From Candidatus Binataceae bacterium (GTDB lineage Bacteria > Desulfobacterota > Binatia > Binatales > Binataceae), in assembly GCA_035939115.1 (NCBI GenBank), contig DASZGF010000205.1:10561-74560 (forward strand): a DNA stretch of 64,000 nt, written 5' to 3'. Positions 3,004-64,000 of this stretch are shown here, one piece after another. The notes under the pieces were generated by a model. It did no database searches, was not told where the DNA came from, and saw only the letters and a program-made list of their open reading frames with translations. Numbering within the stretch: the stretch's first letter is position 1; each line of letters begins with the position of its first letter. A program made the position numbers and the translations under genes.

Positions 3004-3053
3004 AAGAGTCTCCCACCTCGCGTAAGTGAAGTGATTTCTTTCTTTCAGTATTA

Positions 3054-44303: not shown

Positions 44304-46084
44304 TTAAGTATCCCCAACAGCGGCGAATGTTCGACCTCGACTGTTTTCCCGCCGCCCAGGTACATGTGCACTCCGCACGGCAGGCAGGGATCGAAGCTTC
44401 GCACAGCGCAGGATATCAATCCCCTTGAACTCGTCGCGGCCATTTTCTTCGAAGATGGGCGTGTTCTGGATGGCGTCTTCGTAGGGGCCGGGCGTCCCGT
44501 GAAGATCGCGCGGGCTCGCGTTCCAGCAAGTCGGCGGATATGGATGGTAGTTGGCCAGCTTGCCCTCGCGAATCACCAGGTGATGGGAGAGCGCCCCGCG
44601 CACCGCCTCGTGGAAGCCACAGCCAACGGCCTCCTGCGGCACTTTGAACTCGGTCCAGGTTTTGGTCCGGCCCGCCAGCACCTCCGCGCGCGCCTGCTCC
44701 AGAAAGTACAGCGCGGCAGCGGCGGCGTAGGCCTGGAAATAAGTGCGCGCGCGATTGCGCTCGAGCGTGTTGCTCCACTTGGGGATCTTCCATTCCAGTT
44801 CGGTCTCGGGAATCGCCGCGCTTTTGGGCAGACGGATTTTCAGACCGCCGCGCGCCGCTTCGATATAGCCGATCCGCACCCGTTGCGAGAGCGCCGTGCT
44901 CCACAACCGGGCCAGCGGTCCGCCGCCGGTATCCAACGCGAGGTGGCGGTTGTTGCGCGCGTCGTACCATCGCGGCGACATGACCCAGGTGTACTTGCCG
45001 GCAAAATCGCGGCGGTCTGGCTTGGGGATGGTGGTCTGATTCCACGGATGGCGCTGATCGACGGGATTACCCAGCGGATCAGACTTCACAAAAGTCTCCG
45101 CGCCTGCCAGTCGTCGTAAAATGAACTTCCCAATAAAATCCGGATGCCAAGGTTAATCTCGACCAGATCGGTGGTCAGCAGTTCGCCGTCGACAATGATC
45201 CCCGGCGTGACATACATCTCGCGTCCCCAGCGGCTCATCGTCGCGTAGTCGAAGTCGCACGCCTCCGGGTTTTGGAACGACCCCCAACAGCCCAGCAAAA
45301 TCCGGCGCCGGCCAACCTCTTCATAGCCGGGCAGCGCCTCGTAGAAAAAATCAAACAAATCGTCATGAAATGCGACTGCGCGTTTGATGAAATCGATATA
45401 CTTCATCAGCCGAACCAGGTATCCGGTGAACAACTGGATATCGGCGACGGTGCCGACTCCACCCGGATAGAGGGTCGAGGGATGCGCATGACGGCCGCCC
45501 ATCAGGCAATACATCTCGCGCGCCAGGCGGCTCATCTCCAGCGCCTCGCGGTAGAACGGCCCCTGGAACGGATTGAGCGCGGCCATCAGGTCGCCAATCG
45601 TGGCGTAGCCGTGCCGCGCGGCATTGGGCGCCGCCGCGCGCTGCGCTTTGGCCAGTACGGCGGGATTGGTCTCCCGCATCATGCGCTCGCAGAAATCGAC
45701 CCCTACCATGTTGTCCTGGAACAGGTTGTGATCGAACATGTATTCGGCGGCTTCCGCCAGGTTGATTATCCAGTCGGCCAGCGGCGGCGGCTTCACCCCG
45801 AACGCCATGTTTTGCGCATACACCGCGCAAGTTGCGTGATTGTCGCCGCAGATGCCGCAGATGCGGCTGGTGATGAACTGTGCATCGCGCGCATCCTTGC
45901 CCTTCATGAAGATGCTGTAGCCGCGGAAGATCGAGGAAGTGGCGTGGCATTGCGCGACCTGGCGATTGGCGAGATCGACCTTGGCGTGGATGCCGAGGCT
46001 GCCCACCACGCGCGTGATGGGATCCCAGGTCACATCGAGCATTTCGCCCGAGCCCTGGCCGTCGCGCCGCCGCGGCTTAGCCAT
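44300..46084 (-). pseudogene. hhyL: Second group 1h-type [NiFe] hydrogenase large subunit with two frameshifts
   Basis: ORF 45086..46084 carries TSRICGICGDNHATC. It is joined to ORF 44304..45089 by a 1-nt shift near 45090-45100. The L2 motif FDPCLPCGVHMYLGGGKTVEVEHSPLLGILK* (44366-44392 for DPCLPCGVH) is only reached after a further 2-nt shift near 44403-44409. Confidence 0.85.
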
Positions 46085-47174
46085 TGCGCTTTTCCCTTTT
46101 GACGGTTTCCGGCGTCCGCTGATCGGCGGCCTGATGGTTCGCGCGGCCGCGCCAATCCGGCTCCCGATCCATCGAGTCGATGGTAAAGCGCCGCAGCGCC
46201 CTCACCGCGCGCCCGTACATCATTACCGCCGAGGACGACATCTTTGCTCCCGGCGGCTCATCCATGAAGGGCATGATCTTGTCGGGAAACCCGGGCATCG
46301 TACAGCCGATGCAGATCCCGCCGACATTCGGACAGCCGCCGACACCGCCGATCCATCCGCGCTTGCCGACGTTGCATCGCACCACCGGGCCCCAGCATCC
46401 GAGCTTGACGATACACTTGGGACGGCCGTATTGCTCCTCGAAATCAGCCTGTTCGTAGTATCCGCCGCGATCGCAGGTTTCATGTACCGTCGGCCCGAAC
46501 AACCATCGCGGACGCAAACAGTCATCCAGCGGGATCATCGGCGCGTGGCCCGCCGCCTGGTAAAGCAGGTAGAGCAGCGTCTCCATAAAGTTGTCGGGCT
46601 GCACCGGGCATCCGGGAACGCAGACAATCGGGATACCGGCGCGCGATCGCCAGTCCCATCCCAGGAAATCAGCCACTCCCATACAGCCAGTAGGATTGCC
46701 GGCGTCCGCGTGGATGCCCCCGTAGGTAGCGCACGTTCCCGCCGCCACAATCGCCCACGCATTGGGCGCCAGCCGCTCCAGCCATTGGCAGGTGGTAATC
46801 GGTTGGCCGGTGGCCGCGTCGGTTCCCATCGCCGCCCAGTAACCTTTGCGCTTGTTGGTTTCGTCGGGAATCGATCCTTCCACCACCAGCAGGTACGGAC
46901 CGAGCTTGCCGCGCGCCGCGCGATGGAAGTGATCGAGGAACTGGTCGCCGACCTCGTAGGCCAACACCGGGTTGTGCAGAGTAACTTTGGGAATGCGGGG
47001 AATGGCGCCGAGCACGATGTCCTCGATACTGGGCTGGGTTGCGGCGGTCATCGCGATCGTGTCACCGTCACAACCCAAACCGGCGGTGATCCATAAAATG
47101 TCGAGTTCTTGAAGCGGCGCGAGCGCTTGCGCGCGCGGGACGAGCGTTTTCCCGGGTTTAGCCGCGCGCGCCAT
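46077..47174 (-). CDS. hhyS: Second group 1h-type [NiFe] hydrogenase small subunit (intact)
   Basis: LWITAGLGCDGDT, GTCATYGGI, VPGCPVQPDN, CIVKLGCWGPVVRCNV, CPNVGGICIGCTMPGFPD. All Cys positions of the first copy are conserved. No Tat signal. Confidence 0.9.
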   Translation of the reverse strand: MARAAKPGKTLVPRAQALAPLQELDILWITAGLGCDGDTIAMTAATQPSIEDIVLGAIPRIPKVTLHNPVLAYEVGDQFLDHFHRAARGKLGPYLLVVEGSIPDETNKRKGYWAAMGTDAATGQPITTCQWLERLAPNAWAIVAAGTCATYGGIHADAGNPTGCMGVADFLGWDWRSRAGIPIVCVPGCPVQPDNFMETLLYLLYQAAGHAPMIPLDDCLRPRWLFGPTVHETCDRGGYYEQADFEEQYGRPKCIVKLGCWGPVVRCNVGKRGWIGGVGGCPNVGGICIGCTMPGFPDKIMPFMDEPPGAKMSSSAVMMYGRAVRALRRFTIDSMDREPDWRGRANHQAADQRTPETVKREKRNG

Positions 47175-53169: not shown

Positions 53170-54496
53170 ATGCCCGCAAATCCGCTCAAGGCCGTCGCCG
53201 CGTTCTTCGATTTCGAGGGACATCGCACCAGTTTTCAGCGCGAAGCGGTGGCGGGGCTCACCACCTTCGTCACCATGTCCTACATCATCGCGGTCAATCC
53301 CGCGATTTCTCAAAGAGGCCGGAATCCCGCCGGGACCCTCGATGGTAGCCACAATCGTGGCCGCCGTCGTCGGCACATTGATCATGGGACTGTACGCGAA
53401 CCGGCCCTTCGCAATCGCCCCGTACATGGGCGAGAACGCCTTTATCGCGTTCACCGTCGTTAAAACGATGGGATTTTCGTGGCAGACCGCGCTGGCCGCC
53501 GTCTTCATCAGCGGAGTCCTGTTCGTGGCGCTGACGGTGGCGCGAATCCGCCAATGGCTGCTGGAGTCGGTGCCGCCCGGATTGCGCTACAGCTTTGCCG
53601 CCGGAATCGGGCTGTTCCTGGTTTTTATCGGCATGAACGAAGCGGGCATCGTCGCGCTGGGCGTGCCCGGCGCTCCGGTGCGGATTGGCGTGCTGACCTC
53701 GCCCACGGTGCTGATGGCGATCGGCTGTTTCCTGCTGATTTCAGTGCTGATGATGTGGCAAGTGCCGGGAGCGATCCTGCTGGGGATTCTGAGCGCGGCG
53801 GCGGCGTCCTTTATCCTGGGCCTGGCGCCGGCGCCCGCGCGATGGACCGGCGCGCCGCCGGACCTGCGCCCGCTGCTCTTTCAGATCGATCTGCGCGGGG
53901 CGCTCAGTTGGCCGTTTCTGGGCGTGCTGCTGACCATCTTCATGATGGCCTTTATCGACACTTTGGGCTCGTTGATTGGGCTGTCGGCGCGCGCGGGATT
54001 TCTCGACGCGGACGGGCGGTTGCCGCAAATCGAGCGACCGATGCTGGCTGACGCGATCGCGACCACGGTGGCCGGGCTTATCGGCACCACCACTTCCGGG
54101 GCGTTTATCGAATCGGCCACCGGGATCGCCGCCGGCGGACGCACCGGATTCACCGCTGTGGTCACCGCGGCCCTGTTTGCGGCGGCCTTGTTTTTCGCCC
54201 CGCTCATCACCGGGATTCCGCCGGCGGCGTACAGTCCCGCCCTGATCGTAGTCGGGCTCCAGATGCTGGCGCCGATTGCTCGGATCGATTTCGACGATTA
54301 CACGGAGATGATCCCGGCCTTCGCGGTGGTGGTGTTGATGAGCTTCACCTACAACATCGGGATAGGAATAACCGGTGGGTTCGTGCTTTGTCCGTTCTTC
54401 AAGCTGGTGACCGGCAGAGCGCGCGAGGTGAGCCCCGGATTGTGGGTTTTGAGCGCATTCTCGCTGCTGTTCTTTATCTTCTATCCCTACCGATGA
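53170..54496 (+). pseudogene. NCS2-family (AzgA-like purine) permease with one frameshift
   Basis: N-terminus REAVAGLTTFVTMSYIIAVNPAI is in ORF 53170..53463. The rest (LKEAGIPPGPSMVATIVAAVVGTLIMGLYANRPFAIAPYMGENAF...) is in ORF 53342..54496. An extra T in the run at 53306-53308 explains the shift. Confidence 0.8.
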
Positions 54497-54565
54497 GATT
54501 TGCCCTGGGCCTGTTGTAGAGCAGAAGGTTACGTCCGGCGGTTATCCATCTTTGGAGCGAGAAAT

Positions 54566-54592
54566 CGCCGGCACGGAGGCCGGCTGCTACGG
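54566..54592. repeat. REP element, forward orientation (F1)
   Basis: cgccggcacggaggccggctgctacgg. Contains the internal hairpin gccggc-acggag-gccggc. Confidence 0.85.
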
Positions 54593-54670
54593 AAGAAAGC
54601 TGCCCGGCTGCTTTGAAAGTGCAGAAGGTCTTTGCGAAAATGAGTTTCACGGAACGCGCAACGCCACTTT

Positions 54671-54697
54671 CCGTAGCAGCCGGCCTCCGTGCCGGCG
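54671..54697. repeat. REP element, reverse orientation (R1)
   Basis: ccgtagcagccggcctccgtgccggcg is the perfect reverse complement of F1. It ends 7 nt before the rayT ATG. Confidence 0.85.
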
Positions 54698-54704
54698 TTC
54701 TTCA

Positions 54705-55013
54705 ATGACTGCGGACGACAGTCAGCGGTACCGGCTAATCGGCTACGCCGTGATGAACGACCATGTGCATATGGTCGTAGAGCCGAGCATGGGTTACGAT
54801 CTGACTGCGATTGTGCAATCTTGGAAGTCCTATACGACTATTCGTGTGCTACGCAGTTTCGGAAGAAAGGGGCGGATTTGGCAGCGGGAGTATTTCGACC
54901 GCGTTATTCGGGACGACGAGGAACTCCGCAACCGGCTTGCTTACATCCTGGGCAATCCTGGCACGCGGTGGCCGGATATTGAGGACTACTCATGGGTGTG
55001 GGTGGAAGGGGAG
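54705..55013 (+). pseudogene. rayT: N-terminally deleted RAYT copy; the stop codon is lost and the ORF reads on to 55226
   Basis: MTADDSQRYRLIGYAVMNDHVHMVVEPS...SWKSYTT... lacks the approximately 49 residues TTLYRGRLPHW...LRNFEG present in the other two copies. Confidence 0.75.
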
Positions 55014-55022
55014 AGCGGAGAA

Positions 55023-55049
55023 CGCCGGCACGGAGGCCGGCTGCTACGG
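55023..55049. repeat. REP element, forward orientation (F2)
   Basis: Identical 27-mer. Confidence 0.85.
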
Positions 55050-55283
55050 CAGAAAGGGAGATCGGAGCGTTCAGGAAGTCTAAGCGTTAGTCGGCGCAAC
55101 TGCGAGGCCCGCGTCGGACCGACGATGCCCCAGCAGTGGCAAGCGGTTCTTCCACTACACCTTGCCGATTTATCTCGACGCTCCGGAGGCCGGTGCAACT
55201 GGAGAAAATCTGTCCTGGTGCTTTGAAAGTGTTCAAAGGCTTTGCGAAAATGAATCGCATGGAGCTAATGCGCAACGCCTCTT

Positions 55284-55310
55284 CCGTAGCAGCCGGCCTC
55301 CGTGCCGGCG
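55284..55310. repeat. REP element, reverse orientation (R2)
   Basis: Identical 27-mer in reverse complement. Confidence 0.85.
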
Positions 55311-55317
55311 TTCTTCA

Positions 55318-55770
55318 ATGACTGTGGACGACACAACATTATATCGAGGCAGGCTTCCGCATTGGCGCGTTTCCGGCGCTATATACTTCGTCACCTGGCG
55401 CGTGGCCAAGGGACAGTCCGAGCTCTCGCCGGATGAAAGGGACATCGTGGTCGCGACGCTGCGCAACTTTGAGGGTCAGCGGTACCGGCTAATCGGCTAC
55501 GTCGTGATGAACGACCATCTGCATGTGGTCGTAGAGCCGAGCACGGGTTACGATCTGACTGCGATCGTGCAATCGTGGAAATCCTATACGACTAATCGCA
55601 TGCAACGCAGTTGCGGAAGAAAGGGTCGAGTTTGGCAGCGGGAGTATTTCGACCGCGTTATTCGGGACGACGACGAGCTGAACAACCGGCTTGCGTACAT
55701 CTTGAGAAATCCGAGCGAGCGGTGGCCGGACATTCAGGAATATTCCTGGGCGTGGGTTGATGGAGTCTAG
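55318..55770 (+). CDS. rayT: REP-associated tyrosine transposase (IS200/IS605 Y1 transposase-like)
   Basis: RLPHWRVSGAIYFVTWRV, HUH motif NDHLHVVVE, catalytic Tyr region QSWKSYTTNRM. Flanked by inverted REPs at 55284-55310 and 55790-55816. Confidence 0.85.
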   Translation: MTVDDTTLYRGRLPHWRVSGAIYFVTWRVAKGQSELSPDERDIVVATLRNFEGQRYRLIGYVVMNDHLHVVVEPSTGYDLTAIVQSWKSYTTNRMQRSCGRKGRVWQREYFDRVIRDDDELNNRLAYILRNPSERWPDIQEYSWAWVDGV

Positions 55771-55789
55771 TTGGTCTTTTTGCGGAGAA

Positions 55790-55816
55790 CGCCGGCACGG
55801 AGGCCGGCTGCTACGG
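55790..55816. repeat. REP element, forward orientation (F3)
   Basis: Identical 27-mer. Confidence 0.85.
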
Positions 55817-56055
55817 CAGAAAGGGAGAAAAGATCGGAGCGTTCAGGAAGTCCTATGCGTTAGTCGGCGCAACTGCGAGGCCCGCGTCGGACCGACGATG
55901 CCCCAGCAGTGGCAGGCGGTTCTTCCACTACACCTTGCCGATCTATCTCGACGCCGGAGGCCGGTGCAACTGGAGAAAATCTGTCCTGGTGCTTTGAAAA
56001 GTGTTCAAAGGCTTTGCGAAAATGAATCGCATGGAGCTAATGCGCAACGTCTCTT

Positions 56056-56082
56056 CCGTAGCAGCCGGCCTCCGTGCCGGCG
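56056..56082. repeat. REP element, reverse orientation (R3)
   Basis: Identical 27-mer in reverse complement. Confidence 0.85.
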
Positions 56083-56089
56083 TTCTTCA

Positions 56090-56545
56090 ATGACTGCAGA
56101 TGACACAACGTTGTATCGAGGCAGGCTTCCGCATTGGCGAGTTTCCGGCGCTATATACTTCGTCACCTGGCGCCTGGCCAAGGGACAGTCCGAGCTCTCG
56201 CCGGAGGAAAGGGATCTCGTAGTCGCGACGCTGCGCAACTTTGACGCTCAGCGGTACCGGCTTACCGGCTACGTCGTGATGAACGACCATCTGCATGTGG
56301 TCGTAGAGCCGAGCACGGGTCACAACCTGACTGCGATCGTGCAATCTTGGAAGTCCTATACGACCAATCGCATGCAACGCAGTTGCGGAAGAACGGGTCG
56401 GATTTGGCAGCGGGAGTATTTCGACCGCGTTATTCGGGACGACGAGGAACTCCGCAACCGGCTTGCTTACATCCTGGGCAATCCTGGCACGCGGTGGCAG
56501 GAGATTGAGGACTACTCATGGGCGTGGGTGGAAGGGGTTTTTTGA
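56090..56545 (+). CDS. rayT: REP-associated tyrosine transposase (third copy)
   Basis: Same motifs as the 55318 copy with scattered substitutions. Flanked by REPs at 56056-56082 and 56556-56582. Confidence 0.85.
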   Translation: MTADDTTLYRGRLPHWRVSGAIYFVTWRLAKGQSELSPEERDLVVATLRNFDAQRYRLTGYVVMNDHLHVVVEPSTGHNLTAIVQSWKSYTTNRMQRSCGRTGRIWQREYFDRVIRDDEELRNRLAYILGNPGTRWQEIEDYSWAWVEGVF

Positions 56546-56555
56546 GAGCGGGGAA

Positions 56556-56582
56556 CGCCGGCACGGAGGCCGGCTGCCACGG
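56556..56582. repeat. REP element, forward orientation (F4; one mismatch)
   Basis: cgccggcacggaggccggctgccacgg. Confidence 0.8.
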
Positions 56583-56617
56583 GGAGAAAGGCAGAAAGAT
56601 CGGAGCGTTAACGGAGC

Positions 56618-57223
56618 CTATGCCTTGCGCGGCGCAACTGCGAGGCCCGCGTCGGACAGGCGCTGCTCGAGCAGCGGCAGGCGGTCGTGACCCCAGAATG
56701 GTTCGCCCTCGTGGAAGAATAGCGGGACGCCGAAAACGTGATCATTGGCGGCTTCCTGCTGGGCTGCCGCCCACGATTCGAGTCCGGCTCCGGAGAGGTA
56801 GTTGCGATACTCCGCGGCGTCCAGACCCAGATTCGCGATCACGTTCGCAACGGCGTTGGGCTGGTCGATTTCCAGTTCGCGCCGGAAGAAAAGCTCGTAC
56901 ACTTTGCGGCTGTACTCCGGCAGCCGTCCGTTCTTTTCGGCAAACAGTCCGCCGATTAGGGCGGGCGTCGAGTCGTAAACCTTGAGCGGACCGCGGATTA
57001 CGAACCCGCGCGACCTGGCCCATCGGCGGGCGTCCAGATAGGAGTATTTAGCCTTGTATTCGGAATAGAGACTGCGCTCGCCCTTGCCCTTGATTCGGAG
57101 CTGGAATGGAATCCAGCGCACTCGCACCCTGTAGCGCTGTTCAAGCGCGAACGCCGGATCGAAAGCCAGGTAGGCGAAGGGACTCTTGTAGTCGGAGTAC
57201 ATTTTAATTTCCGGCGGTTCCAC
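56618..57223 (-). CDS. DsbA-like thioredoxin-fold protein (2-hydroxychromene-2-carboxylate isomerase family)
   Basis: IKMYSDYKSPFAYLAF...HVFGVPLFFHEGEPFWGHDRLPLLE. Confidence 0.75.
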   Translation of the reverse strand: MEPPEIKMYSDYKSPFAYLAFDPAFALEQRYRVRVRWIPFQLRIKGKGERSLYSEYKAKYSYLDARRWARSRGFVIRGPLKVYDSTPALIGGLFAEKNGRLPEYSRKVYELFFRRELEIDQPNAVANVIANLGLDAAEYRNYLSGAGLESWAAAQQEAANDHVFGVPLFFHEGEPFWGHDRLPLLEQRLSDAGLAVAPRKA

Positions 57224-57256
57224 AACTACTCCGGGCGGTGGGTCTTGAAGTGTATC

Positions 57257-57294
57257 AACCCTAACCCTCTCCCACGACTGAATGTGGGAGAGGG
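57257..57294. repeat. Copy of the ccctaaccctctccc palindromic repeat family
   Basis: caaccctaaccctctcccac gactgaat gtgggagagggg (11-nt perfect stem). Confidence 0.65.
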
Positions 57295-57351
57295 GACAGA
57301 ATGGTGATACGGGCCGAGGCGCGCATTTTCATGAGCGACGGCGATTTTACC

Positions 57352-59010
57352 TCAGTTCATTCGCTGCGAGCGGATTACCTGGCCGGGCAGCGCGCCTGTA
57401 GCTTTGCCGTCCACGTAGATCACTTCGCCGTTTACCACGGTGTAGTTGATGCCCTGCGCCGTCATCACGAAACGGGCGCCGCCGCCGGGTAGGTCGCGAA
57501 TCTGATGCTGGCGCATCTTGGTATCAATCGTGTCGTAGTCGAAGATTACCACGTCGGCCGCCATCCCGGGCTTAAGCCGTCCGCGTCCGACGACGCCGAA
57601 GATATCGGCGGGATGCGACGTTATCAGCTCGACGGCGCGCTCGAGCGAAAAGAGCTGCTTCTTGCGCACCCAATGGCCGATCATGTAGGTCGGATAGCCG
57701 GCTTCGCAATGCGCGTCGACGTGCGCGCCGCCGTCGGACAGGCCGATCATCGTGCGCGGGTCGGACAGCAACAGGTCCATCCCGTCCTCGCTCATCGGCA
57801 TATCGGTGAAGCGGGTTTGGATACCGTCGGCGACCGCAAGGTCGAGGAAGGCGTCGACCAGGTCCACGCCGCGCTCCTGCGCGATCTGGGTAAGCGATTT
57901 GCCCTCGTAGGATTTCAGGTCCGGTCTTTGGACCTCTTCCACACGCAACCGCTTGAGATCGGGGCGGGCGACCTTCAGGCTCAGATTGCGGCGGAATTCC
58001 TCGTGAAACGCAGGGTCGGCGTAGGCCTGCTTCATCACCTCGAGCGGCTTGTTGAGCACGCGGCCGAACGCCGGCAGCGCGGCGAAGCTGCCCGGTGTGC
58101 TCAGGTTGACGTTGCGAACCACCGGCACCGCCGACACCTGCGGAATACCGCCCCTCTTGACCAGCGGCTCGACCTTGGCGAGCACCTCCTTGTGGTTGTG
58201 AACAAAGACCGCCAGCCACGTCACGGGGCGGCCGCTGGCGGTCAGCAGCGCGTCGAGCATCTTGTAGTCGTCGTCGCTGAAATTGCCTGTGACATTGAGG
58301 TTGAACTCGATAATGCCGCGGCCCAGTTCCTTGAGCACGCCGGCGTACGCCACCAACTCATCCATGCTGGCCAGGCGCGAGGCCAACGGACGCCCCTGGT
58401 AGCCGACGTGATTGGCCGCCTTGCTGGTGGACCATCCCATCGCGCCCGCCGCCACGGCTTCGTAGATCAGTTGCTTGATCTGCTTGATCTCTTCGGGACG
58501 CGCCGCGCGGTCCATCGATTCCTCGCCCATCACGTAATGGCGAAAGGGCGTGAGCGGCGCCAGAAAGCCTACATTGATCCCCAGTTTCTGTCGCGCGGCG
58601 GCTTCGATGTATTGCGGAAAAGTCTCCCACTTCCAGGTAATGCCCCGCTGGAGCACGTCGAACGGGATGCCTTCAACGTTGACCAGGTCCCACGCGGCGA
58701 CCTCGCGCATCTCGGGCTTGCACGGCGCAATCCCCACGCCGCAGTTGCCCATCACGGTGGTCGTCACTCCATGCCACGAGGAACAGGTCACCAGGTCGTC
58801 CCACCAGATCTGGGCGTCGTAATGCGTGTGCGGATCGATAAAGCCGGGAGCGACAATCAAGCCGTCGGCGTCGATCACCTTGGCGGCGCCGTCTTTGATT
58901 TTGCCGACTTCGGCGATTTTGCCATTGGCTATTGCCACGTCCGCCTGGACGCGCGGGGCGCCGGTGCCGTCAACGACGGTCCCGTTTTTGATCAACAGAT
59001 CATAGGCCAT
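57352..59010 (-). CDS. N-acyl-D-amino-acid deacylase (D-aminoacylase) family amidohydrolase
   Basis: YDLLIKNGTVVDGTGAP...ADVAIANGKIAEVG...VAPGFIDPHTHYD. Confidence 0.8.
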   Translation of the reverse strand: MAYDLLIKNGTVVDGTGAPRVQADVAIANGKIAEVGKIKDGAAKVIDADGLIVAPGFIDPHTHYDAQIWWDDLVTCSSWHGVTTTVMGNCGVGIAPCKPEMREVAAWDLVNVEGIPFDVLQRGITWKWETFPQYIEAAARQKLGINVGFLAPLTPFRHYVMGEESMDRAARPEEIKQIKQLIYEAVAAGAMGWSTSKAANHVGYQGRPLASRLASMDELVAYAGVLKELGRGIIEFNLNVTGNFSDDDYKMLDALLTASGRPVTWLAVFVHNHKEVLAKVEPLVKRGGIPQVSAVPVVRNVNLSTPGSFAALPAFGRVLNKPLEVMKQAYADPAFHEEFRRNLSLKVARPDLKRLRVEEVQRPDLKSYEGKSLTQIAQERGVDLVDAFLDLAVADGIQTRFTDMPMSEDGMDLLLSDPRTMIGLSDGGAHVDAHCEAGYPTYMIGHWVRKKQLFSLERAVELITSHPADIFGVVGRGRLKPGMAADVVIFDYDTIDTKMRQHQIRDLPGGGARFVMTAQGINYTVVNGEVIYVDGKATGALPGQVIRSQRMN

Positions 59011-59028
59011 GGATGTTGTCCTCCAGCG

Positions 59029-61371
59029 TCAGTCCAGACGCACGTCCCACACCGGCGGTTCGTCGGCGCGGACCAGTTCGTTTTCCAGCAGCACCCCGCA
59101 ATTGGGGCACAGAAATTCGCGATATACAATTGACACATCGAACTCGCCTGCCGGGTCGGGAAACAGCTCCGCGTCGATTTCCATCAGCGAGCCGTCGATG
59201 CACGCCGCGCCCAGCTTGTAATTGCCATCGCCGGCGCAGATGAAATGGCCGCAATCCTTGCACATGATATAGCGCTCCGGCCCGATCGCCACCAGTTCGA
59301 GCTCCTCACCGACGTCGTGTAGATGGGTCAGCGGAGTGCCGTTGGGGCTGGGTTGCGGCGCGAGCGCCAGCGGCGGCGGAGACGCGCGCCCAATCCGTTC
59401 GGCGCGTATGTCTTTGCGGCGTCGATCCGTGGCGGGCGCATCCTCCGCGCCGTCCTTGACAATCGCGCCATAAATCCGCGCCGCGACTTCGGTGCTGATC
59501 ACCTTGGATACCACGTCCTTTACGACCAGCGCAGGATCGCGCCGGATCGGATCGCCATAGCCGCCGCCCGACGACACCGACTGCACCATCACATCGCTTT
59601 GCAGCATCCGGATGTTCGCGGTCTTGGGCGGCACCGCTTCCAGGTTCCACAGCTCGTTGACTTCGCGGCTGTTGGCGGGAAGGCTGCCCTGTTTGAATTG
59701 CTCGCGAATGTCGGTGCCCGACTGATAATGGCACAGCCCCGACTGGCCCCAGTGCCCGCCCCACAGTCCATGACATCCGGGCAGGCTCACCGGCGCCGAC
59801 ACGTTGCTGAATACCTGCTGCTCGGTGCCCTGCCCGACCCATCCCATCACCAGTCCCGCGCCGCCCCGGTACTTGCCGTGGCCGAAGCCGGGAAAGCTGC
59901 GCCGGTACAGGTACATGATCGGATAGGCCTGCTCCCACGCCTCGCAATCGCCGCTTTCGGCGCTGGGCATGATATGCGCGGAACCCTGGTCGAGCCCGTC
60001 CTTGAAGGAAAACGCCGCCATCCCGTGCGCGATTACGTCCAGCGTGATGCTGGCGTAAGGCTTACCCCACTGGTCGATGCCCGACATTCCGGCAAATGTC
60101 GTTCCGACGCTGCCGGCCATCGCCATCTTTCGCAGCTCGGAGTCGCCGACCATCATCTTGGAGGCGACCTTGGAGGCCTGGAAGATGGTCATCATGATCG
60201 CCTGCAGATTGGAGACCGCGCCGTTGCGGTCGATACAGGTGATCGTGCCCGGGACGCCTTCGAATTTCATATGCTTCAGCACGCCGGCGAAACAAAACCG
60301 ATGGTCCCACGCCAGCATCGAGCACAGCGAGGCCAGGATCGCCGCGCGCCACGCCCCATACGAGCAGTTGGAAGATCCTACTTGCGGATCGGTACCATCG
60401 TTAAAAAACGTAAGCTGGTCGCCCTGCTTCTTCATCCCGAGCCGCACGCGATAGGCGCCGCGGTCGCCGGTGTACATCCCGCCCAGATAGGACACATCGG
60501 TCCAGGTGCCGTCGGGCAGACGGCTTAGCCGCTCGCCCACGGCGCGGCTGGTATCGCGGACTATTTTGCGCATCGCGGCCTTGACCGTCGCCGCGCCGTA
60601 GCGCCGCACCAGATCAAGAATGCGCACGCGCGAGGCGTGGATCCCCGCCATCTGCGAGCGCAGGTCCAGGGCCAGCAGACCGGGCAGCCTCGAGTGGCGC
60701 ATCAGGGCCGCCTCGATATCGGGGCGGATGCGCCCGCGCTCGATGATCTTGAGCGGGGGAATCGGAGTGGCCTCGCTGTAGATGTCGCGGGCGTCAACGC
60801 AGAAACTTCCCGGCGCAACTCCGCCGATATCGCGCACGTGGATCGAATTGAAGATCCAGCAGAACAGCTCGTCGCCGACGAACACCGGCGCAAAAGCCTG
60901 GAAGTCCATCTGATGGCTGACCCCGATCAGCGGGTCGTTCTGGACAAACAGGTCGCCGTCGTGGATGCCGGGGAACTCGCCCAGATTCTCGATCGTCCAC
61001 CGCACGACCAGATCCGCCATCCCGGGGAAATACTGAAGGTAAGGGGCAAAGACCACGCCGTCCCCCACTTCATCCTGGATCGACGTATTGAAGTCGAACG
61101 CGAATGTGGTCACCGGCGAGGAGGAAACCTTGCGGATGGTGTCGGCTTGCTCCTGGTTGACGATCCACAGCGCGTTGCGGATGACCTCGAAGGTGACGGG
61201 ATGAATCGACTCCGCCTCCTCGGTGTGCAGCTTCAGGTTGGGGGCCAGGCGCAGCTTGGGACCGGGGATATAGCTGCGCATCCGCCCGTCCCATTCATCG
61301 GCCCGGGGACGCTCGCTATGCGTGGTCCGTCGTTCAGTTTCGAATTCCATTTCCCGCGGCTGTCCGGCCAT
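59029..61371 (-). CDS. Hydantoinase B/oxoprolinase (acetone-carboxylase-alpha-like) protein with a C-terminal Zn-ribbon resembling the acetone carboxylase gamma subunit
   Basis: 780 aa. The HyuB-like core includes ...GGGYGDP.... The C-terminus has CKDCGHFIC...YREFLCPNCGVLLENE. Confidence 0.65.
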   Translation of the reverse strand: MAGQPREMEFETERRTTHSERPRADEWDGRMRSYIPGPKLRLAPNLKLHTEEAESIHPVTFEVIRNALWIVNQEQADTIRKVSSSPVTTFAFDFNTSIQDEVGDGVVFAPYLQYFPGMADLVVRWTIENLGEFPGIHDGDLFVQNDPLIGVSHQMDFQAFAPVFVGDELFCWIFNSIHVRDIGGVAPGSFCVDARDIYSEATPIPPLKIIERGRIRPDIEAALMRHSRLPGLLALDLRSQMAGIHASRVRILDLVRRYGAATVKAAMRKIVRDTSRAVGERLSRLPDGTWTDVSYLGGMYTGDRGAYRVRLGMKKQGDQLTFFNDGTDPQVGSSNCSYGAWRAAILASLCSMLAWDHRFCFAGVLKHMKFEGVPGTITCIDRNGAVSNLQAIMMTIFQASKVASKMMVGDSELRKMAMAGSVGTTFAGMSGIDQWGKPYASITLDVIAHGMAAFSFKDGLDQGSAHIMPSAESGDCEAWEQAYPIMYLYRRSFPGFGHGKYRGGAGLVMGWVGQGTEQQVFSNVSAPVSLPGCHGLWGGHWGQSGLCHYQSGTDIREQFKQGSLPANSREVNELWNLEAVPPKTANIRMLQSDVMVQSVSSGGGYGDPIRRDPALVVKDVVSKVISTEVAARIYGAIVKDGAEDAPATDRRRKDIRAERIGRASPPPLALAPQPSPNGTPLTHLHDVGEELELVAIGPERYIMCKDCGHFICAGDGNYKLGAACIDGSLMEIDAELFPDPAGEFDVSIVYREFLCPNCGVLLENELVRADEPPVWDVRLD

Positions 61372-61442
61372 AAGATGCCTTGCCTCTACATTAGCTTGTA
61401 CAACCGTTCCTTGTTTGCGGCAATCACCATTTCAGGCGACCG

Positions 61443-61531
61443 AGAAAAGAGAAACGAGAAATGAGAAAAGAGAGGCAGGTCCGGGCGGTTTGCCAGCCCT
61501 CTTTTTTCTATTTTCTCGTTTCTCTTTTCTT
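61443..61531. repeat. Purine-rich / pyrimidine-rich long inverted repeat in a divergent intergenic region
   Basis: gagaaaagagaaacgagaaatgagaaaagagagg ...21 nt... ccctcttttttctattttctcgtttctcttttc. Arms are about 33 nt with a few mismatches or indels. Confidence 0.7.
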
Positions 61532-61577
61532 CCGAATTGGTTACGCTAGCCGTCCTGATGAGAAGGAGGGCCACACC

Positions 61578-63182
61578 GTGGCGCTAGCAAGCAGATGTCC
61601 GTCGGCCGGGGAACCAATGGCCGCCGCCGGTTGGACGATTACCCGCGTGGTCAATCCTTCACCATTATATGGCTCCAATGGGATGCGGCTGGGGCCGGAC
61701 GGATGGCTTTACGTGACGCAGGTGTTCGGCAGTCAGATCAGCGCGATCAATCCTGCCACCGGCGAGGCGCGGATCGTCAGCCCGCGGGGTGGGTCGATCG
61801 TCAGTCCCGACGACCTCGATTATGACTCCAAAGGCGTGATGTACATAACCGAATATCTGAACTCGCGGGTTTGTGCGCGGATGCCCAACGGCGAGGTGCG
61901 CGTCATTTCCGATCAGGTTCCCGGCGCCAACGGTATCACCGTTTACAAAGACCGCCTGTTCATCGACGAATGCCGCGCCGGCGGACGTTTGCTCGAACTG
62001 TTTCCGGACGGGCGGGCGCCGCGCCTGATGGCCGATGGGCTTGCAATGCCCAATGCGTGCGCCGTCGGTCCCGATGAGCATCTTTACTTTCCCGAAGTCC
62101 TGAGTGGGGACATCTGGCGCGTGCCGCTCAACGGCGGCGAGCGCGAGCGTTTCATTAGCGGGCTTCACACTCCGCCGGCGCTGAAGTTCGACAATCGGGG
62201 CGCGCTGATGGTGCTGGAATCGCACACCGGCGATGTCACCCGGATCGACTTGCAGAGCCGGAAAAAGACCCGCTTCGCAACGCTGGAGTCGGGGCTCGAC
62301 AACCTGGTCATCGCGCCCGACGACCGCGTCTTCGTGTCCAGCTTCGCCCACGGAGGGCTTTGGGAGATCGCACCCAACGGCCAAAGCAAAGTGCTTGTGC
62401 CCCATGGATTGATCGGACCGTGGGACCTGGCATGGAGCGGCGAGACGCTCTTCATCGGGGATGGGCCGAGCTTGATTCGCGTGCGTTCCGAAGGCGGATG
62501 GGAGCGGGCCGGATGGGTCGGAGATCCGGGCTTTCCGGGGATAATCCGCGGCTTGTGCGCGGGTCCCGGCGGGGCGCTGTACATCACCACGACCGTGGGC
62601 ACCGTCGCCACCTTTGATCCGAAAACGCACAGCGCCGAAGTGCTGGCCAAGGAGCTCGATCATCCGCTCGGTATCGCCCGTTCGCCGCGCAACTCCGTGA
62701 TCGTGGTGGAAAGCGGGACCGGCAGGATTCTGGAGCTGGTCGAAGGCGGAGAACCCAAAACCATCGCCGAAGGACTGAACTCCCCGACCGGAGTAGCCGT
62801 CGCGCCGGACGGCGCCTGCTACGTCAGCGAAACCGGCGCTCGCCGCGTGGTCAGGATAAATGGCGGCGTTGAGACCGTGTCCGAAGGGATGGACAAGCCC
62901 CAGGGCCTCGCGGTCGTGGGCGACGCGCTGGTGGTGCTCGACGCGGGCTCGCGGCTATTGCTGGAAATCCCGCTCAGCGATCGCCGGCGCAAACTGCTGG
63001 CGTCCAACCTGCCGGTAGGCAGCGCCGGCAGTTTACCGGCCAAGGCAATGCCGGGAATTCCCGGCATTTTCCCTGGACCATTCGTTCCGTTCGCCGGCAT
63101 CGCGACCGGACCCGGCGGCCGCATCTTCGTCGCCGGCGACGCCGACGGCAGCGTACTGGCGCTGAAGCGAAACCCTGAGTGA
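61578..63182 (+). CDS. SMP-30/gluconolactonase/NHL-type beta-propeller repeat protein
   Basis: Repeated ...GPDGxLY..., ...P.GIA/GVAV..DG.. blades across about 530 aa. GTG 61578 follows an aggaggg SD; ATG 61617 is an alternative start. Confidence 0.5.
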   Translation: MALASRCPSAGEPMAAAGWTITRVVNPSPLYGSNGMRLGPDGWLYVTQVFGSQISAINPATGEARIVSPRGGSIVSPDDLDYDSKGVMYITEYLNSRVCARMPNGEVRVISDQVPGANGITVYKDRLFIDECRAGGRLLELFPDGRAPRLMADGLAMPNACAVGPDEHLYFPEVLSGDIWRVPLNGGERERFISGLHTPPALKFDNRGALMVLESHTGDVTRIDLQSRKKTRFATLESGLDNLVIAPDDRVFVSSFAHGGLWEIAPNGQSKVLVPHGLIGPWDLAWSGETLFIGDGPSLIRVRSEGGWERAGWVGDPGFPGIIRGLCAGPGGALYITTTVGTVATFDPKTHSAEVLAKELDHPLGIARSPRNSVIVVESGTGRILELVEGGEPKTIAEGLNSPTGVAVAPDGACYVSETGARRVVRINGGVETVSEGMDKPQGLAVVGDALVVLDAGSRLLLEIPLSDRRRKLLASNLPVGSAGSLPAKAMPGIPGIFPGPFVPFAGIATGPGGRIFVAGDADGSVLALKRNPE

Positions 63183-63206
63183 CCCAACTGACCGGAGGAA
63201 GAGCAA

Positions 63207-64000
63207 ATGCCTAACGCACCAAAGACCTGTATGGCCGCGCTGCTCAAGGCTTACCGGGAGCCGCTGGCGGTTGAAGAAGTGCAGCTTCCGCGGGAGCTTG
63301 AACCCGGTGCGATGCTGGTCAAAAACGACGCCAGCTCAATCTGCGGGTCCGACATGCACGCGTGGGAAAATCCGCCTCCCGCAAGCATGGGAATCGCCGT
63401 GAACCTGCCCGTGGTGCCGGGGCATGAGATGATGGGCCGGATCGCGGATTTAGGTACCGTCAAGGACGATTCGCTGGGGCGTCCGCTGAAGGAAGGCGAC
63501 CGCGTCATCTGGAGTCCGGGGGTCTGCGGGCGATGCTTCTGGTGCGTCGTCGCCAAGCGCCCCTCGCTGTGCCCCAATCGGCGCTACTTCGGCGTGTCGT
63601 CGGCCAAAAACTATCCGTACCTGACGGGGGCGTTTGCCGAATACACTTACGTGTTTCCGGGGTGCGGACTGGTCAAGGTGCCCGACACCGTCAAGGACCA
63701 TTGGGCGTCAGCCGCGTCTTGCGCGTTGCGGAGCGTGGTGCACGCGTTCGAACGGCTGGGAACGCTGCGCGAGCCGGAGATCGTGGTGGTTCAGGGAACG
63801 GGGCCGATCGGGCTGTTCTCGGTTGCGATGTCGGCGCGCTCCGGCGCCGCCAAGGTGATCGCGATCGGTGCGCCAGCGGATCGCCTCGAAGTGGCGAAAA
63901 AATGGGGCGCCGACCATACGATTTCCGTGAATGTACCTCACGCCCAGCGCGTCGAGCAGGTCAAGGAACTGACCGGCGGGCTGGGCGCGGACCTGGTGAT
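63207..64000 (+). CDS. Zinc-dependent alcohol dehydrogenase (MDR family), 3' end outside the window
   Basis: Manual translation from ATG 63207 (ggaggaag SD) is open to the window end. Motifs: ICGSDMHAW, PGHEMMG, structural-Zn CGRCFWCVVAKRPSLC and Rossmann VVQGTGPIG. It is absent from the ORF track because no stop codon lies in the window. Confidence 0.8.
   Translation, partial: MPNAPKTCMAALLKAYREPLAVEEVQLPRELEPGAMLVKNDASSICGSDMHAWENPPPASMGIAVNLPVVPGHEMMGRIADLGTVKDDSLGRPLKEGDRVIWSPGVCGRCFWCVVAKRPSLCPNRRYFGVSSAKNYPYLTGAFAEYTYVFPGCGLVKVPDTVKDHWASAASCALRSVVHAFERLGTLREPEIVVVQGTGPIGLFSVAMSARSGAAKVIAIGAPADRLEVAKKWGADHTISVNVPHAQRVEQVKELTGGLGADLV

What the first reader, a model, noticed from the sequence alone, without database searches (positions are those of the whole stretch)
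54566..56640. Tandem triplication of a RAYT gene with its REP palindromes, carrying along a piece of the neighbouring gene
- RAYTs are normally single-copy domesticated transposases. Here three copies lie head to tail, with periods of 767 and 766 bp.
- Each copy is preceded by a reverse REP that ends 7 nt before the ATG and is followed by a forward REP. The 27-mers are perfect reverse complements.
- Copies 2 and 3 differ by scattered substitutions, so this is not an assembly duplicate.
- Copy 1 has lost about 49 N-terminal codons and its stop codon.
- Each unit also contains a diverged pseudo-copy of the last approximately 25 codons of the adjacent DsbA-like gene. Compare 55086-55160 and 55863-55935 (...WKNRLPLLGHRRSDAGLAVAPTNA*) with the real gene end at 56618-56700 (...WGHDRLPLLEQRLSDAGLAVAPRKA*).
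- This shows the array grew by duplication of a segment spanning the gene boundary.
Basis: seen in the sequence. Interest (0 to 1): 0.65.

Follow-up and report, generated by a model that had tools for sequence, protein, structure and literature searches.

The report
Tandemly triplicated RAYT–REP locus (REPtron)
A domesticated transposase gene (RAYT) with its flanking REP hairpins, usually present once per genome, has been copied three times head to tail here by ordinary host recombination rather than by transposition. This is a real and tidy example of repeat-driven gene amplification, but not a new kind of system.

Summary
Window 54561-56589 holds three head-to-tail units. Each unit is a REP hairpin, a RAYT ORF and an inverted REP, and units 2 and 3 also carry a 78-nt pseudo-copy of the 3' end of the neighbouring dsbA-like gene.

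- **Not an artefact.** Three independent metagenome assemblies reproduce the array. Copy-specific unitigs sit at single-copy depth in four soil metagenomes.
- **Family.** The proteins pass the NCBIfam RAYT model. They have the HUH motif and the catalytic Tyr, and the model of copy 3 is closest to E. coli TnpA-REP (4ER8).
- **REP.** The REP is GTAG, then CA, then a 6-bp stem with a 6-nt loop. It occurs in many other contexts in the same metagenomes.
- **Lineage-specific.** Related lineages carry one RAYT at the same site next to dsbA.
- **History.** An old non-homologous duplication captured the dsbA tail. Unequal crossover and gene conversion followed.
- **State of the copies.** Copies 2 and 3 are intact and under purifying selection (pN/pS 0.31). 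Copy 1 is dead: it has an in-frame deletion of 47 codons, not 49, and has lost its stop codon.

Two things are new. A related strain carries a collapsed single hybrid unit. A second locus carries exactly one period of the array, circularly permuted, which suggests an excised circle that reintegrated.

Verdict: new variant of a known kind, moderate interest.

The parts
53342..54496 (+). Left flanking gene, xanthine/uracil-permease family. It is not part of the repeat.
   Evidence: Pfam PF00860, E 1e-30. The same gene order MsrA-permease-RAYT-DsbA is seen in relative L107.
54561..54599 (+). Outermost forward REP (iREP orientation on the + strand; core 54567-54592). With 54669-54701 it forms a REPIN-like doublet.
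   Evidence: The doublet 54560-54705 folds as one long hairpin: -54.4 kcal/mol, z -9.15. An equivalent upstream REPIN is present in orthologue L102.
54613..54641 (+). Promoter-like site TTGAAA-17-GAAAAT in the spacer. It recurs in every unit, at 55223-55251 and 55994-56023.
   Evidence: 3 found against 0.8 expected. This is a consensus match only. The spacer core is conserved between units (D7).
54669..54701 (+). REP upstream of copy 1. The GTAG-CA-hairpin is on the coding strand and ends 7 nt before the ATG.
   Evidence: 6-bp stem GCCGGC, 6-nt loop, GTAG 2 nt 5' of the stem.
54705..55226 (+). RAYT copy 1, a pseudogene. It has an in-frame 141-nt deletion (residues 6-52) and has lost its stop. 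The ORF runs on through the REP and the pseudo-tail. RAYT homology ends near 55012.
   Evidence: The NCBIfam score of 63.7 is below the cut-off of 80. The deletion removes strand 22-29 and helix 38-50 of the model. pN/pS against copy 3 is 0.64.
55018..55056 (+). Forward REP downstream of copy 1 (core 55024-55049).
55081..55158 (-). Pseudo-copy 1 of the last ~25 codons of the dsbA-like gene.
   Evidence: 59 of 77 positions identical to 56618-56695, and 44% beyond. Translation ..WKNRLPLLGHRRSDAGLAVAPTN, with a stop codon just upstream.
55178..55204 (+). Degenerate forward REP (REP'), the decayed homologue of 54561-54599. The old duplication junction lies between the pseudo-tail and this REP'.
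   Evidence: Sequence comparison. The L003 copy is less decayed and still reads GCTACGG.
55280..55314 (+). REP upstream of copy 2 (core 55284-55309).
55318..55770 (+). RAYT copy 2, intact, 150 aa.
   Evidence: NCBIfam NF047646 at 89.1 bits (cut-off 80) and Pfam Y1_Tnp. HUH and Tyr are present. Metatranscriptome contigs match it exactly.
55785..55823 (+). Forward REP downstream of copy 2 (core 55791-55816).
55854..55931 (-). Pseudo-copy 2 of the dsbA tail.
   Evidence: 97% identical to pseudo-copy 1 (D3) and 81% to the real tail.
55951..55975 (+). Degenerate forward REP (REP') of unit 3.
56052..56086 (+). REP upstream of copy 3 (core 56056-56081).
56090..56545 (+). RAYT copy 3, intact, 151 aa.
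   Evidence: NF047646 at 91 bits. Aligns to 4ER8 with HUH (H67, H69) and with Tyr115 of 4ER8 opposite Y127. AlphaFold model pLDDT 88.6, best fold match 4ER8 at TM 0.70.
56551..56589 (+). Forward REP downstream of copy 3 (core 56557-56582, one mismatch T>C at 56578). Other strains have the perfect REP here.
   Evidence: The variant with the perfect REP is seen.
56618..57223 (-). Real DsbA-like gene, convergent with the RAYTs. It is the source of the pseudo-tails.
   Evidence: Pfam PF01323, E 1.6e-24. It is the conserved neighbour of the RAYT in L095, L102, L106 and L107.

Best explanation
This is a REPtron: a domesticated Y1 HUH transposase gene (RAYT, also called TnpA-REP) bracketed by inverted copies of its cognate REP hairpin. 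It sits at an old, vertically inherited site next to a dsbA-like gene in an uncultured soil bacterium, probably Binatia.

**Inferred history**
1. The ancestral locus was [REP doublet]-RAYT-REP-dsbA.
2. An old, non-homologous tandem duplication took in everything from the upstream REP to 78 nt inside dsbA. Its age is roughly pS 0.2. It made two units and left a pseudo-dsbA tail and a now-decaying REP at the junction.
3. Both RAYT copies stayed under purifying selection.
4. Unequal homologous crossover and gene conversion between units later expanded the array to three. This homogenised the intergenic segments and shuffled the ORFs into mosaics.
5. Copy 1 then lost 47 codons and its stop codon.
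6. The same recombination also contracts the array. One related strain appears to hold a single hybrid of copy 1 and copy 3.
7. At least once, recombination probably released a one-unit circle that reintegrated elsewhere by illegitimate recombination, giving a dead, circularly permuted unit.

**Shown:** the anatomy, the independent assemblies, family membership, the single-copy orthologous loci, the selection statistics, the mosaic site patterns, and the exact one-period permuted copy.

**Inferred:** the order of events, the recombination mechanism and the circular intermediate. Nothing requires the RAYT enzyme itself to have made the copies.
For: - **Anatomy and repeat statistics:**
- **RAYT identity:** NF047646 scores 89 and 91 bits against a cut-off of 80, while IS200 scores 23 against 55. 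4ER8 is the only PDB sequence hit and HUH and Tyr are aligned. H67 is invariant, and H69 and Y127 are at least 90% conserved across 38 homologues. The fold match to 4ER8 has TM 0.70 and rmsd 3.0, against TM 0.5-0.6 for IS200, IS608 and ISDra2.
- **REP form:** GTAG, 2 nt, 6-bp stem, as described for group-3 REPs in PMC8266576. A compensatory stem change, GCGGGC/GCCCGC, is seen in relative L013.
- **REP dispersal:** REP-containing unitigs have tens of times the flank depth and many different flanks. REP doublets with other 18-36-nt spacers occur in the same metagenomes.
- **Single RAYT at the same site next to dsbA in relatives:** L095, L102, L106 and L107.
- **The array is real:** L099, L100 and L002, and unitig depths.
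- **Two ages of duplication:** the ORFs of copies 2 and 3 differ by pS 0.22. The pseudo-tail is 77-81% identical to the real tail and the unit-1 spacer is 76% identical to the others. In contrast, intergenic segments 1 and 2 are 98.6% identical.
- **Purifying selection:** pN/pS is 0.31 between copies 2 and 3, like the orthologue comparisons at 0.24-0.32.
- **Mosaic blocks** shared between different pairs of copies.
- **Collapsed haplotype:** L097 and L098 have flanks 98.4-99.1% identical to the window.
- **Permuted unit:** L003:5799-6571 is 773 nt, that is the 772-nt period with 'GC' repeated at both ends. It starts and ends at the same point of the RAYT ORF. Its boundaries are identical in 10 samples, and its depth equals that of the window locus in four runs.
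Against: - The old duplication junction cannot be placed to the base, so a role for REP sequences or the RAYT in that event is not excluded.
- Copy 2 is not a simple copy-3/copy-1 hybrid. The three-unit state therefore needs extra gene-conversion steps, or allele exchange between strains.
- The single-unit contigs could be assembler collapses through the 96-nt stretch that is identical in copies 1 and 3.
- No empty site for the second-locus insertion was found, so the target sequence and the 2-nt microhomology remain inferred.
- That the window locus and the second locus share one genome rests only on co-abundance and shared samples.
- No long reads were available.
Confidence: 0.8

Rival explanations
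1. Assembly artefact: a single RAYT unit was expanded by the assembler, or strain variants were stitched in tandem.
For: The window comes from a metagenome. Short-read contigs often break at the REPs; L002 starts inside copy 2 and L106 starts at a REP. One-unit contigs exist.
Against: L099 carries copy 1, copy 2 and the start of copy 3 on one independent contig at 99.8% identity and without gaps. L100 and L002 overlap it at both ends. Unitigs specific to each of the three diverged copies sit at about flank depth in four runs. The junction-specific pseudo-tails occur only inside the array.
Confidence: 0.02
2. IS-like self-transposition: the unit is an active IS200/IS605-type element that inserted next to itself.
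For: The protein has the Y1 HUH fold with flanking hairpins, as in IS200/IS605. A further partial copy exists at another locus.
Against: - The copies are strictly head to tail and co-duplicate 78 nt of host dsbA.
- The IS200 model scores 23 bits against a cut-off of 55, while the RAYT model passes.
- The gene sits at the same site in at least four related lineages.
- The only ectopic copy is cut inside the ORF, not at the hairpins.
Confidence: 0.04
3. RAYT-catalysed amplification: the HUH enzyme nicks at its flanking REPs and drives rolling-circle-like or strand-transfer events. These would create the tandem units and a circular unit that can reinsert.
For: - TnpA-REP cleaves and rejoins single-stranded REP DNA in vitro, and local BIME amplification has been proposed (PMC3333891, PMC8266576).
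- The period is REP to REP.
- The six REPs that directly flank ORFs are 26/26 identical, while the junction REP' decays.
- Remnants of a second RAYT 5' end lie next to dsbA in L095 and L102, which suggests recurrent duplication at this site.
- The break of the permuted unit lies in a stretch that loosely resembles a REP half-site (note).
Against: - The old junction lies between dsbA coding sequence and a REP flank, not at a REP cleavage site.
- The permuted unit is opened inside the ORF, with no hairpin there.
- Mosaic blocks and the hybrid of copies 1 and 3 are what RecA-type recombination gives.
- There is no biochemical evidence.
Confidence: 0.1
4. The second unit was imported rather than duplicated in place. 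A diverged allele of the RAYT-REP-dsbA-tail segment from another strain would have been added by recombination, which would explain why the ORFs are more diverged than the spacers.
For: The ORFs of copies 2 and 3 differ by pS 0.22, about the same as dsbA between the window and the L106 lineage (0.24). The copies are nearly as far from each other (86% aa) as from P0002 (81-82%).
Against: - The pseudo-tail shares 27 consecutive nt with this lineage's own dsbA tail.
- The pseudo-tail, spacer and REP' divergences (19-24%) match an in-place duplication of the same age as the ORFs.
- No donor lineage carrying the junction was found.
Confidence: 0.1

Closest known systems
REPtron / REPIN-RAYT system (TnpA-REP of E. 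coli, PDB 4ER8; group 2 and 3 RAYTs of Pseudomonas, Stenotrophomonas and Marinomonas)
   Same: - A Y1 HUH protein of about 150 aa with HUH and a single catalytic Tyr.
- The gene is bracketed by inverted REPs.
- The REP is GTAG plus a short perfect palindrome. The spacing of 2 nt from GTAG matches the Marinomonas group-3 REP (PMC8266576).
- REP doublets (REPINs) are present.
- The chromosomal position is conserved in related lineages.
   Different: - There are three tandem gene copies instead of one, two of them intact and both flanked by the same REP.
- The REP family appears small, at tens of copies, with none elsewhere in 64 kb.
- The host is an uncultured Binatia-like soil bacterium.
- The RAYT group (1 to 5) was not assigned.
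IS200/IS605 family insertion sequences (TnpA of IS608, ISDra2, IS200)
   Same: The same HUH Y1 fold, with hairpins near the gene ends. The circular intermediates of that family are conceptually similar to the circle inferred here.
   Different: - The score is below the IS200 model cut-off.
- The fold match is poorer than to TnpA-REP.
- The flanking hairpins are inverted copies of one dispersed REP.
- There are no dispersed full copies.
- The ectopic copy is permuted within the ORF, not bounded by element ends.
Recombination-driven tandem gene amplification in bacteria (an initial duplication followed by RecA-dependent unequal crossover, expansion and collapse)
   Same: There is one rare founding junction, here dsbA tail joined to REP flank. 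After that come homologous expansion and contraction, hybrid copies, copy-number polymorphism between strains, and loop-out of unit-length circles.
   Different: The array is old, with two copies kept under purifying selection, rather than a transient selected amplification. One loop-out product seems to have been fixed at a second locus.

Membership tests
RAYT / TnpA-REP | Sequence membership in the curated RAYT family rather than IS200 TnpA | tested here: met
   NF047646 REP_Tyr_transpos scores 89.1 and 91.0 bits for copies 2 and 3 (cut-off 80). The IS200 model NF033573 scores 23 bits (cut-off 55). Copy 1 scores 63.7, below the cut-off.
RAYT / TnpA-REP | HUH motif and single catalytic tyrosine in a Y1 fold | tested here: met
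   H67-L-H69 and Y127 align with the HUH motif and Tyr115 of 4ER8. They are conserved in 38 homologues. The AlphaFold model has pLDDT 88.6 and its best match is 4ER8, TM 0.70.
RAYT / TnpA-REP | Gene flanked by REP sequences in inverted orientation | tested here: met
   A reverse REP lies 7 nt before each ATG and a forward REP after each ORF, with arms 97-100% complementary.
RAYT / TnpA-REP | REP is the conserved GTAG tetranucleotide 5' of a short palindrome | tested here: met
   CCGTAG-CA-GCCGGC-CTCCGT-GCCGGC, with a 6-bp stem, -7.7 kcal/mol, z -2.6. A compensatory stem variant is seen in L013.
RAYT / TnpA-REP | The same REP is over-represented and dispersed in extragenic space of the host genome, often as REPIN doublets | tested here: inconclusive
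   No copy lies outside the array in the 64-kb window. In four soil metagenomes, REP unitigs reach tens of times the flank depth, with more than 10 different flanks and several doublets with other spacers. Related species share the REP, so the count per genome is unknown. No complete genome was available; the exact 26-mer gave 1 hit in the GTDB representatives and 0 in the JGI collection.
RAYT / TnpA-REP | Single copy, non-jumping, vertically inherited at a fixed locus | tested here: not met
   The fixed locus and vertical inheritance are met: L095, L102, L106 and L107 all have RAYT next to dsbA. Single copy is not met, with three tandem copies plus one dead fragment elsewhere. The extra copies carry marks of host recombination, not of transposition.
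RAYT / TnpA-REP | Cleaves and strand-transfers single-stranded cognate REP | not testable with these tools
   This needs purified protein and oligonucleotide assays as in PMC8266576.
IS200/IS605 insertion sequence | Multiple dispersed full-length copies with defined left and right ends, and insertion 3' of a target tetra- or pentanucleotide | tested here: not met
   The only copy outside the array is cut inside the ORF and is exactly one array period long. The protein fails the IS200 model.

The most novel reading that the evidence does not exclude
The REPtron may not be fully immobile. The RAYT, or recombination between its REPs, could generate unit-length circular DNA that can amplify locally and occasionally reinsert elsewhere. 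On this reading, the tandem array, the RAYT 5' remnants next to dsbA in two other species, and the permuted unit at a second locus would all be products of one enzyme-assisted process. That would give a route by which a 'domesticated, non-jumping' RAYT gene duplicates and founds new REP-RAYT lineages.
Probability: 0.1. Interest if true: 0.7.

Novelty: new variant of a known kind. Interest (0 to 1): 0.4.

Why it matters
RAYTs are the textbook case of a domesticated bacterial transposase that no longer copies itself. How new RAYT paralogues arise, each later acquiring its own REP class, is only modelled as 'duplication and diversification' (PMC3686654).

This locus catches that first step in the act:
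- A tandem duplication made by host recombination.
- Two paralogues kept under selection while still sharing one REP.
- A third paralogue decaying.
- Copy-number variation between strains.
- A probable circle-mediated move of one unit to a new locus.

It extends REP-RAYT systems to an uncultured soil phylum. It also shows that the exact REP is held constant across species whose RAYTs are only 72-73% identical.

It does not change the understanding of how RAYTs work.

Tried and rejected
- **Exact REP scans.** The 26-mer gave one hit in the GTDB representative genomes, in a different MAG, and none in the JGI metagenome collection. The source genome is therefore not in those collections, and a genome-wide REP census was not possible.
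- **Exact look-up of the DsbA protein:** not on record.
- **Nanopore runs holding the locus:** none listed, so there was no long-read test of copy number.
- **Empty site of the second-locus insertion.**
  - The pattern scan found nothing.
  - No skipping joint appeared in four runs.
  - Relatives of the neighbouring Na/H exchanger in GTDB genomes are at most 73% identical, too distant to be useful.
  - Joining the flanks gives no convincing disrupted ORF, so the target looks intergenic.
- **Rfam:** no family in 53-58 kb apart from a chance sub-threshold hit.
- **A contig join from 55816 to 56588** looked like a deletion of one unit. It is only the strain variant with a perfect last REP.
- **Simple unequal-crossover model.** It predicts that the middle copy is a hybrid of copy 3 and copy 1. 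The site patterns do not fit this without extra conversion events.
- **The L107 RAYT dN/dS** used a wrong frame and is disregarded.
- **RAYT group assignment (groups 1 to 5)** was not attempted, for lack of reference sequences.


Full report
**1. Observation**

- The 26-mer GCCGGCACGGAGGCCGGCTGCTACGG occurs seven times in the 64-kb window, all between 54567 and 56582. Four copies are on the + strand and three on the - strand. Zero are expected by chance.
- The forward copies are spaced 767 and 766 bp apart. The inverted arms extend to 29-35 nt at 97-100% complementarity.
- Three ORFs follow the reverse copies at a distance of 7 nt:
  - Copy 1: 54705-55226.
  - Copy 2: 55318-55770, 150 aa.
  - Copy 3: 56090-56545, 151 aa.
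- Copy 1 lacks 141 nt, which is 47 codons in frame. It also lacks the 7 nt that carry the stop codon in copy 3, so it reads on to 55226.
- Between the forward REP and the next reverse REP, units 2 and 3 carry a stretch at 55081-55158 and 55854-55931. On the minus strand it translates to ...WKNRLPLLGHRRSDAGLAVAPTN. It is 77-81% identical to the real 3' end of the dsbA-like gene at 56618-56695. Similarity falls to 44% right after.
- After each pseudo-tail lies a decayed forward REP (REP', about 55178-55204 and 55951-55975). It is homologous to the outermost REP at 54561-54599.
- The unit is therefore [forward REP - spacer - reverse REP] - RAYT - forward REP - dsbA tail.

**2. Not an artefact**

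- Independent JGI short-read contigs from other samples reproduce the array:
  - L099 equals window 54622-56502 at 99.8% with no gap. It carries copy 1, copy 2 and the start of copy 3.
  - L100 equals 54037-55846.
  - L002 equals 55392-64000.
- In Logan unitigs of four soil metagenomes, sequences specific to each of the three diverged copies have about the depth of the single-copy flanks. In X2, for example, they are at 7.6-12.6 against 13.3.
- No long-read run was available.

**3. What the parts are**

*The protein*
- Copies 2 and 3 pass NCBI's equivalog model for REP-associated tyrosine transposase (89 and 91 bits, cut-off 80). They fail the IS200 model (23 bits, cut-off 55). Pfam gives Y1_Tnp.
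- The only solved structure found by sequence is E. coli TnpA-REP, 4ER8. HLH (residues 67-69) aligns on its HUH motif, and Y127 (LAYILGNP) aligns on its Tyr115.
- In 38 homologues down to 40% identity, H67 is invariant, and H69 and Y127 are at least 90% conserved.
- An AlphaFold model of copy 3 has pLDDT 88.6. It matches 4ER8 best (TM 0.70, rmsd 3.0 Å). IS200, IS608 and ISDra2 transposases follow at TM 0.5-0.6.
- The copy-1 deletion removes strand 22-29 and helix 38-50 of that model, so copy 1 cannot fold as a RAYT.

*The REP*
- On the strand that carries GTAG, the REP reads CCGTAG-CA-GCCGGC-CTCCGT-GCCGGC. That is a 6-bp stem and a 6-nt loop, with GTAG two bases 5' of the stem.
- GTAG plus a short perfect palindrome, 2 nt apart, is the form described for group-3 REPs such as that of Marinomonas (PMC8266576).
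- A more distant relative (L013, RAYT 56% identical) has the stem changed on both sides, GCGGGC/GCCCGC.
- The outermost REP pair folds into one long hairpin with z -9. It is a REPIN-like doublet.

*Promoter-like site*
- Each unit also holds the same promoter-like site in its spacer. This is a consensus match only.

*Transcription*
- Soil metatranscriptome contigs match copy 2 exactly. They also match parts of copies 1 and 3 and the pseudo-tail region.
- This is weak evidence of transcription, because strand is unknown and DNA carry-over is possible.

**4. Is the REP dispersed?**

- There is no copy elsewhere in the window.
- There are no copies outside the RAYT units in the roughly 20 kb of further contigs from the same organism.
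- In the metagenomes, however, REP-bearing unitigs sum to tens of times the flank depth.
- Many contigs at genome-like depth carry the REP with unrelated flanks.
- Several contigs join a forward to a reverse REP through other spacers of 18-36 nt.
- Related species share the identical REP (see section 5), so these figures are an upper bound per genome.
- I read this as a small dispersed REP/REPIN family of tens of copies. A per-genome count could not be made.

**5. Comparison with relatives**

The best named homologues are from Candidatus Binataceae. Four related lineages have one RAYT at the same place, convergent with the dsbA-like gene and the amidohydrolase behind it:

| Locus | RAYT aa identity |
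|---|---|
| L095 | 72% |
| L102 | 73% |
| L106 | 81% |
| L107 | same MsrA-permease-RAYT-DsbA order; 84-91% nt identity |

- The triplication is therefore specific to the window's lineage, and the locus is inherited vertically.
- L095 and L102 carry the exact same 26-mer REP although their RAYTs are only 72-73% identical.
- L102 has the upstream REP doublet.
- Both L095 and L102 have, between the downstream REP doublet and dsbA, a remnant of a RAYT 5' end. This hints that partial or whole duplications of this REPtron have happened before.
- In L107 the RAYT has a TGG>TGA nonsense codon and its REPs are decayed.

**6. History read from divergence**

- *Two ages.* The intergenic segments between copies 1 and 2 and between copies 2 and 3 are 98.6% identical. 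The ORFs of copies 2 and 3 differ at 11% of sites: pS 0.22, pN 0.068, ratio 0.31. Coding sequence is thus more diverged than non-coding sequence, which a single recent duplication cannot give.
- *The old event.* The pseudo-tail is 19-23% diverged from the real tail. The unit-1 spacer is 24% diverged from the later spacers. The junction REP' is decayed. All of these have about the same age as the ORF divergence. That age is also about the dsbA divergence from the L106 lineage, pS 0.24.
- *Mosaic copies.* Site patterns show mosaic blocks:
  - Copy 3 shares its 3' end with copy 1.
  - Copy 3 shares an internal block with the second-locus copy.
  - Copy 2 shares its 3' end with the second-locus copy.
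- *Best reading.* One old duplication had a junction in dsbA and made two paralogues. Both were then kept under purifying selection; the ratio of 0.31 equals that of the orthologue comparisons at 0.24-0.32. A recent unequal crossover plus gene conversion then gave three units with near-identical spacers.
- *Copy 1.* Copy 1 decayed afterwards (pN/pS 0.64 against copy 3).

**7. Two further products of the same dynamics**

*(a) A collapsed haplotype.* Contigs L097 and L098, from two samples, read permease - REP doublet - one RAYT - REP - dsbA.
- That RAYT has the copy-1 5' part, including the 47-codon deletion, and the copy-3 3' end.
- Its flanks are 98.4-99.1% identical to the window, so it is another strain.
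- This is what recombination between copies 1 and 3 would leave behind.
- An assembler collapse through their 96-nt identical stretch cannot be excluded.

*(b) A permuted unit at a second locus.* The locus lies between a radical-SAM/SPASM cluster and a Na/H exchanger gene. It is represented in 21 JGI contigs, of which 10 were read.
- It carries L003:5799-6571, which is 773 nt. That is one array period (772 nt) with 'GC' repeated at both ends.
- In order, it holds the RAYT 3' part from GCTTACATCC, the forward REP, the pseudo-dsbA tail, REP', the spacer, the reverse REP, and the RAYT 5' part up to CCGGCTTGC.
- Its boundaries are identical in all ten loci.
- It has a frameshift and is dead.
- Its spacer is 93.5% identical to those of the array, so it predates the latest homogenisation.
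- Its junction unitigs have the same depth as the window locus in all four runs, and samples are shared. This suggests the same genome.
- A fragment that begins and ends at the same point of a repeat unit is the signature of a one-unit circle opened at one site. I infer loop-out from the array and illegitimate reintegration.
- The break lies inside the ORF, at the catalytic-Tyr codon, and not at a REP. The RAYT enzyme is therefore not implicated, although the local sequence loosely resembles a REP half-site (note).
- The empty site was not found.

**8. Comparison with what is known**

- Across genomes, RAYTs average about two per replicon, 7.7% have a near-identical second copy, and Group 3 is often multi-copy (PMC5581495).
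- Duplication followed by REP diversification is the proposed origin of new REP classes (PMC3686654).
- None of the four RAYT papers searched for the word uses 'tandem' for RAYT genes. In PMC3686654 it refers to REPIN-like doublets, and in PMC8266576 its single use was not displayed.
- The system here is a member of the RAYT/REP kind by every feature tested except single copy. The tandem, long-maintained, polymorphic array and the permuted ectopic unit are a new variant of that kind.
- The mechanism that fits, a founding duplication followed by homologous expansion and collapse, is ordinary bacterial genetics.

**9. Verdict**

It is of moderate interest. Its main value is as a snapshot of how RAYT paralogues are born, and as a case to test whether REPtrons can move as circles.

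Noticed in passing
window 57258-57300 (also 25023-25052, 26629-26658, and the tandem repeat at 24937-25031): A second, much more abundant dispersed palindromic element: CCCTAACCCTCTCCCAC...GTGGGAGAGGG, with the GGGAGAGGGTTAGGGTGAGGG motif. It lies between the dsbA-like gene and the amidohydrolase gene. Unitig depth is 200-280 against about 12 in the flanks, with many different flanks on both sides. It is probably another REP-like family, with no RAYT seen near it.
   Followed up: partly
L003:5799-6571 (also L004-L012): Exactly one period of the array, circularly permuted and frameshifted, is inserted in an intergenic region between a radical-SAM/SPASM cluster and a Na/H exchanger gene. The boundaries are identical in 10 samples.
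   Followed up: yes
L097:1590-2057 and L098: A one-unit haplotype of the locus in a strain 1-1.6% diverged from the window. Its single truncated RAYT is a hybrid of copy 1 and copy 3, so that strain may have no working RAYT at this site.
   Followed up: partly
L095:4574-4633 and L102:~3600-3680: In two related species with a single RAYT, a downstream REP doublet is followed by a remnant of the first 20-30 nt of a RAYT ORF that abuts the dsbA stop codon. This looks like the scar of an older second unit.
   Followed up: partly
L107:4938-5390: The orthologous RAYT in NCBI MAG GCA_030157165.1 has a TGG>TGA nonsense codon near its 3' end. Both flanking REPs are altered (a 1-nt deletion, and degeneration). 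This looks like a REPtron in decay.
   Followed up: no
L092-L094 (gene at 4001-4453 in L092): Another RAYT, 72% identical, lies at a different locus (TMEM175 - RAYT - OYE-type oxidoreductase). Its REP variant carries GTAA instead of GTAG: CCGTAAGCGCCGGCCTCCGTGCCGGT. It occurs in one of the same samples as the second locus. It may be a second REP-RAYT family in the same community or genome.
   Followed up: no
window 55822-56002: The highest metatranscriptome contig depth over the whole locus (21 in run X27) falls on the pseudo-dsbA-tail and REP' spacer, not on a RAYT ORF. The strand is unknown.
   Followed up: no
window 34554-36678 vs 44345-46444: A segmental paralogy: about 2 kb of coding sequence is repeated 9.79 kb downstream at 71-87% identity. 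It appears to be a duplicated gene cluster (D3-D5, D11-D15).
   Followed up: no
window 2593-3013 vs 19317-19703: Inverted paralogous segments, 254 nt at 83% and 57 nt at 82%, lie 16 kb apart (I1 and I2).
   Followed up: no
window 61442-61530: An A/G-rich 7-nt tandem repeat (GAGAAAA x 4.6) forms one arm of a 33-nt inverted repeat at 91% complementarity with a 22-nt loop (I12).
   Followed up: no
L002:1125-1140 vs window 56522-56548: In another sample, copy 3 has a 27-nt deletion between the ORF end and the REP. The deletion removes the stop codon, giving a 164-aa product (P0001). This mirrors the 7-nt loss in copy 1. The short stretch between the RAYT stop and the REP seems prone to deletion.
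   Followed up: partly
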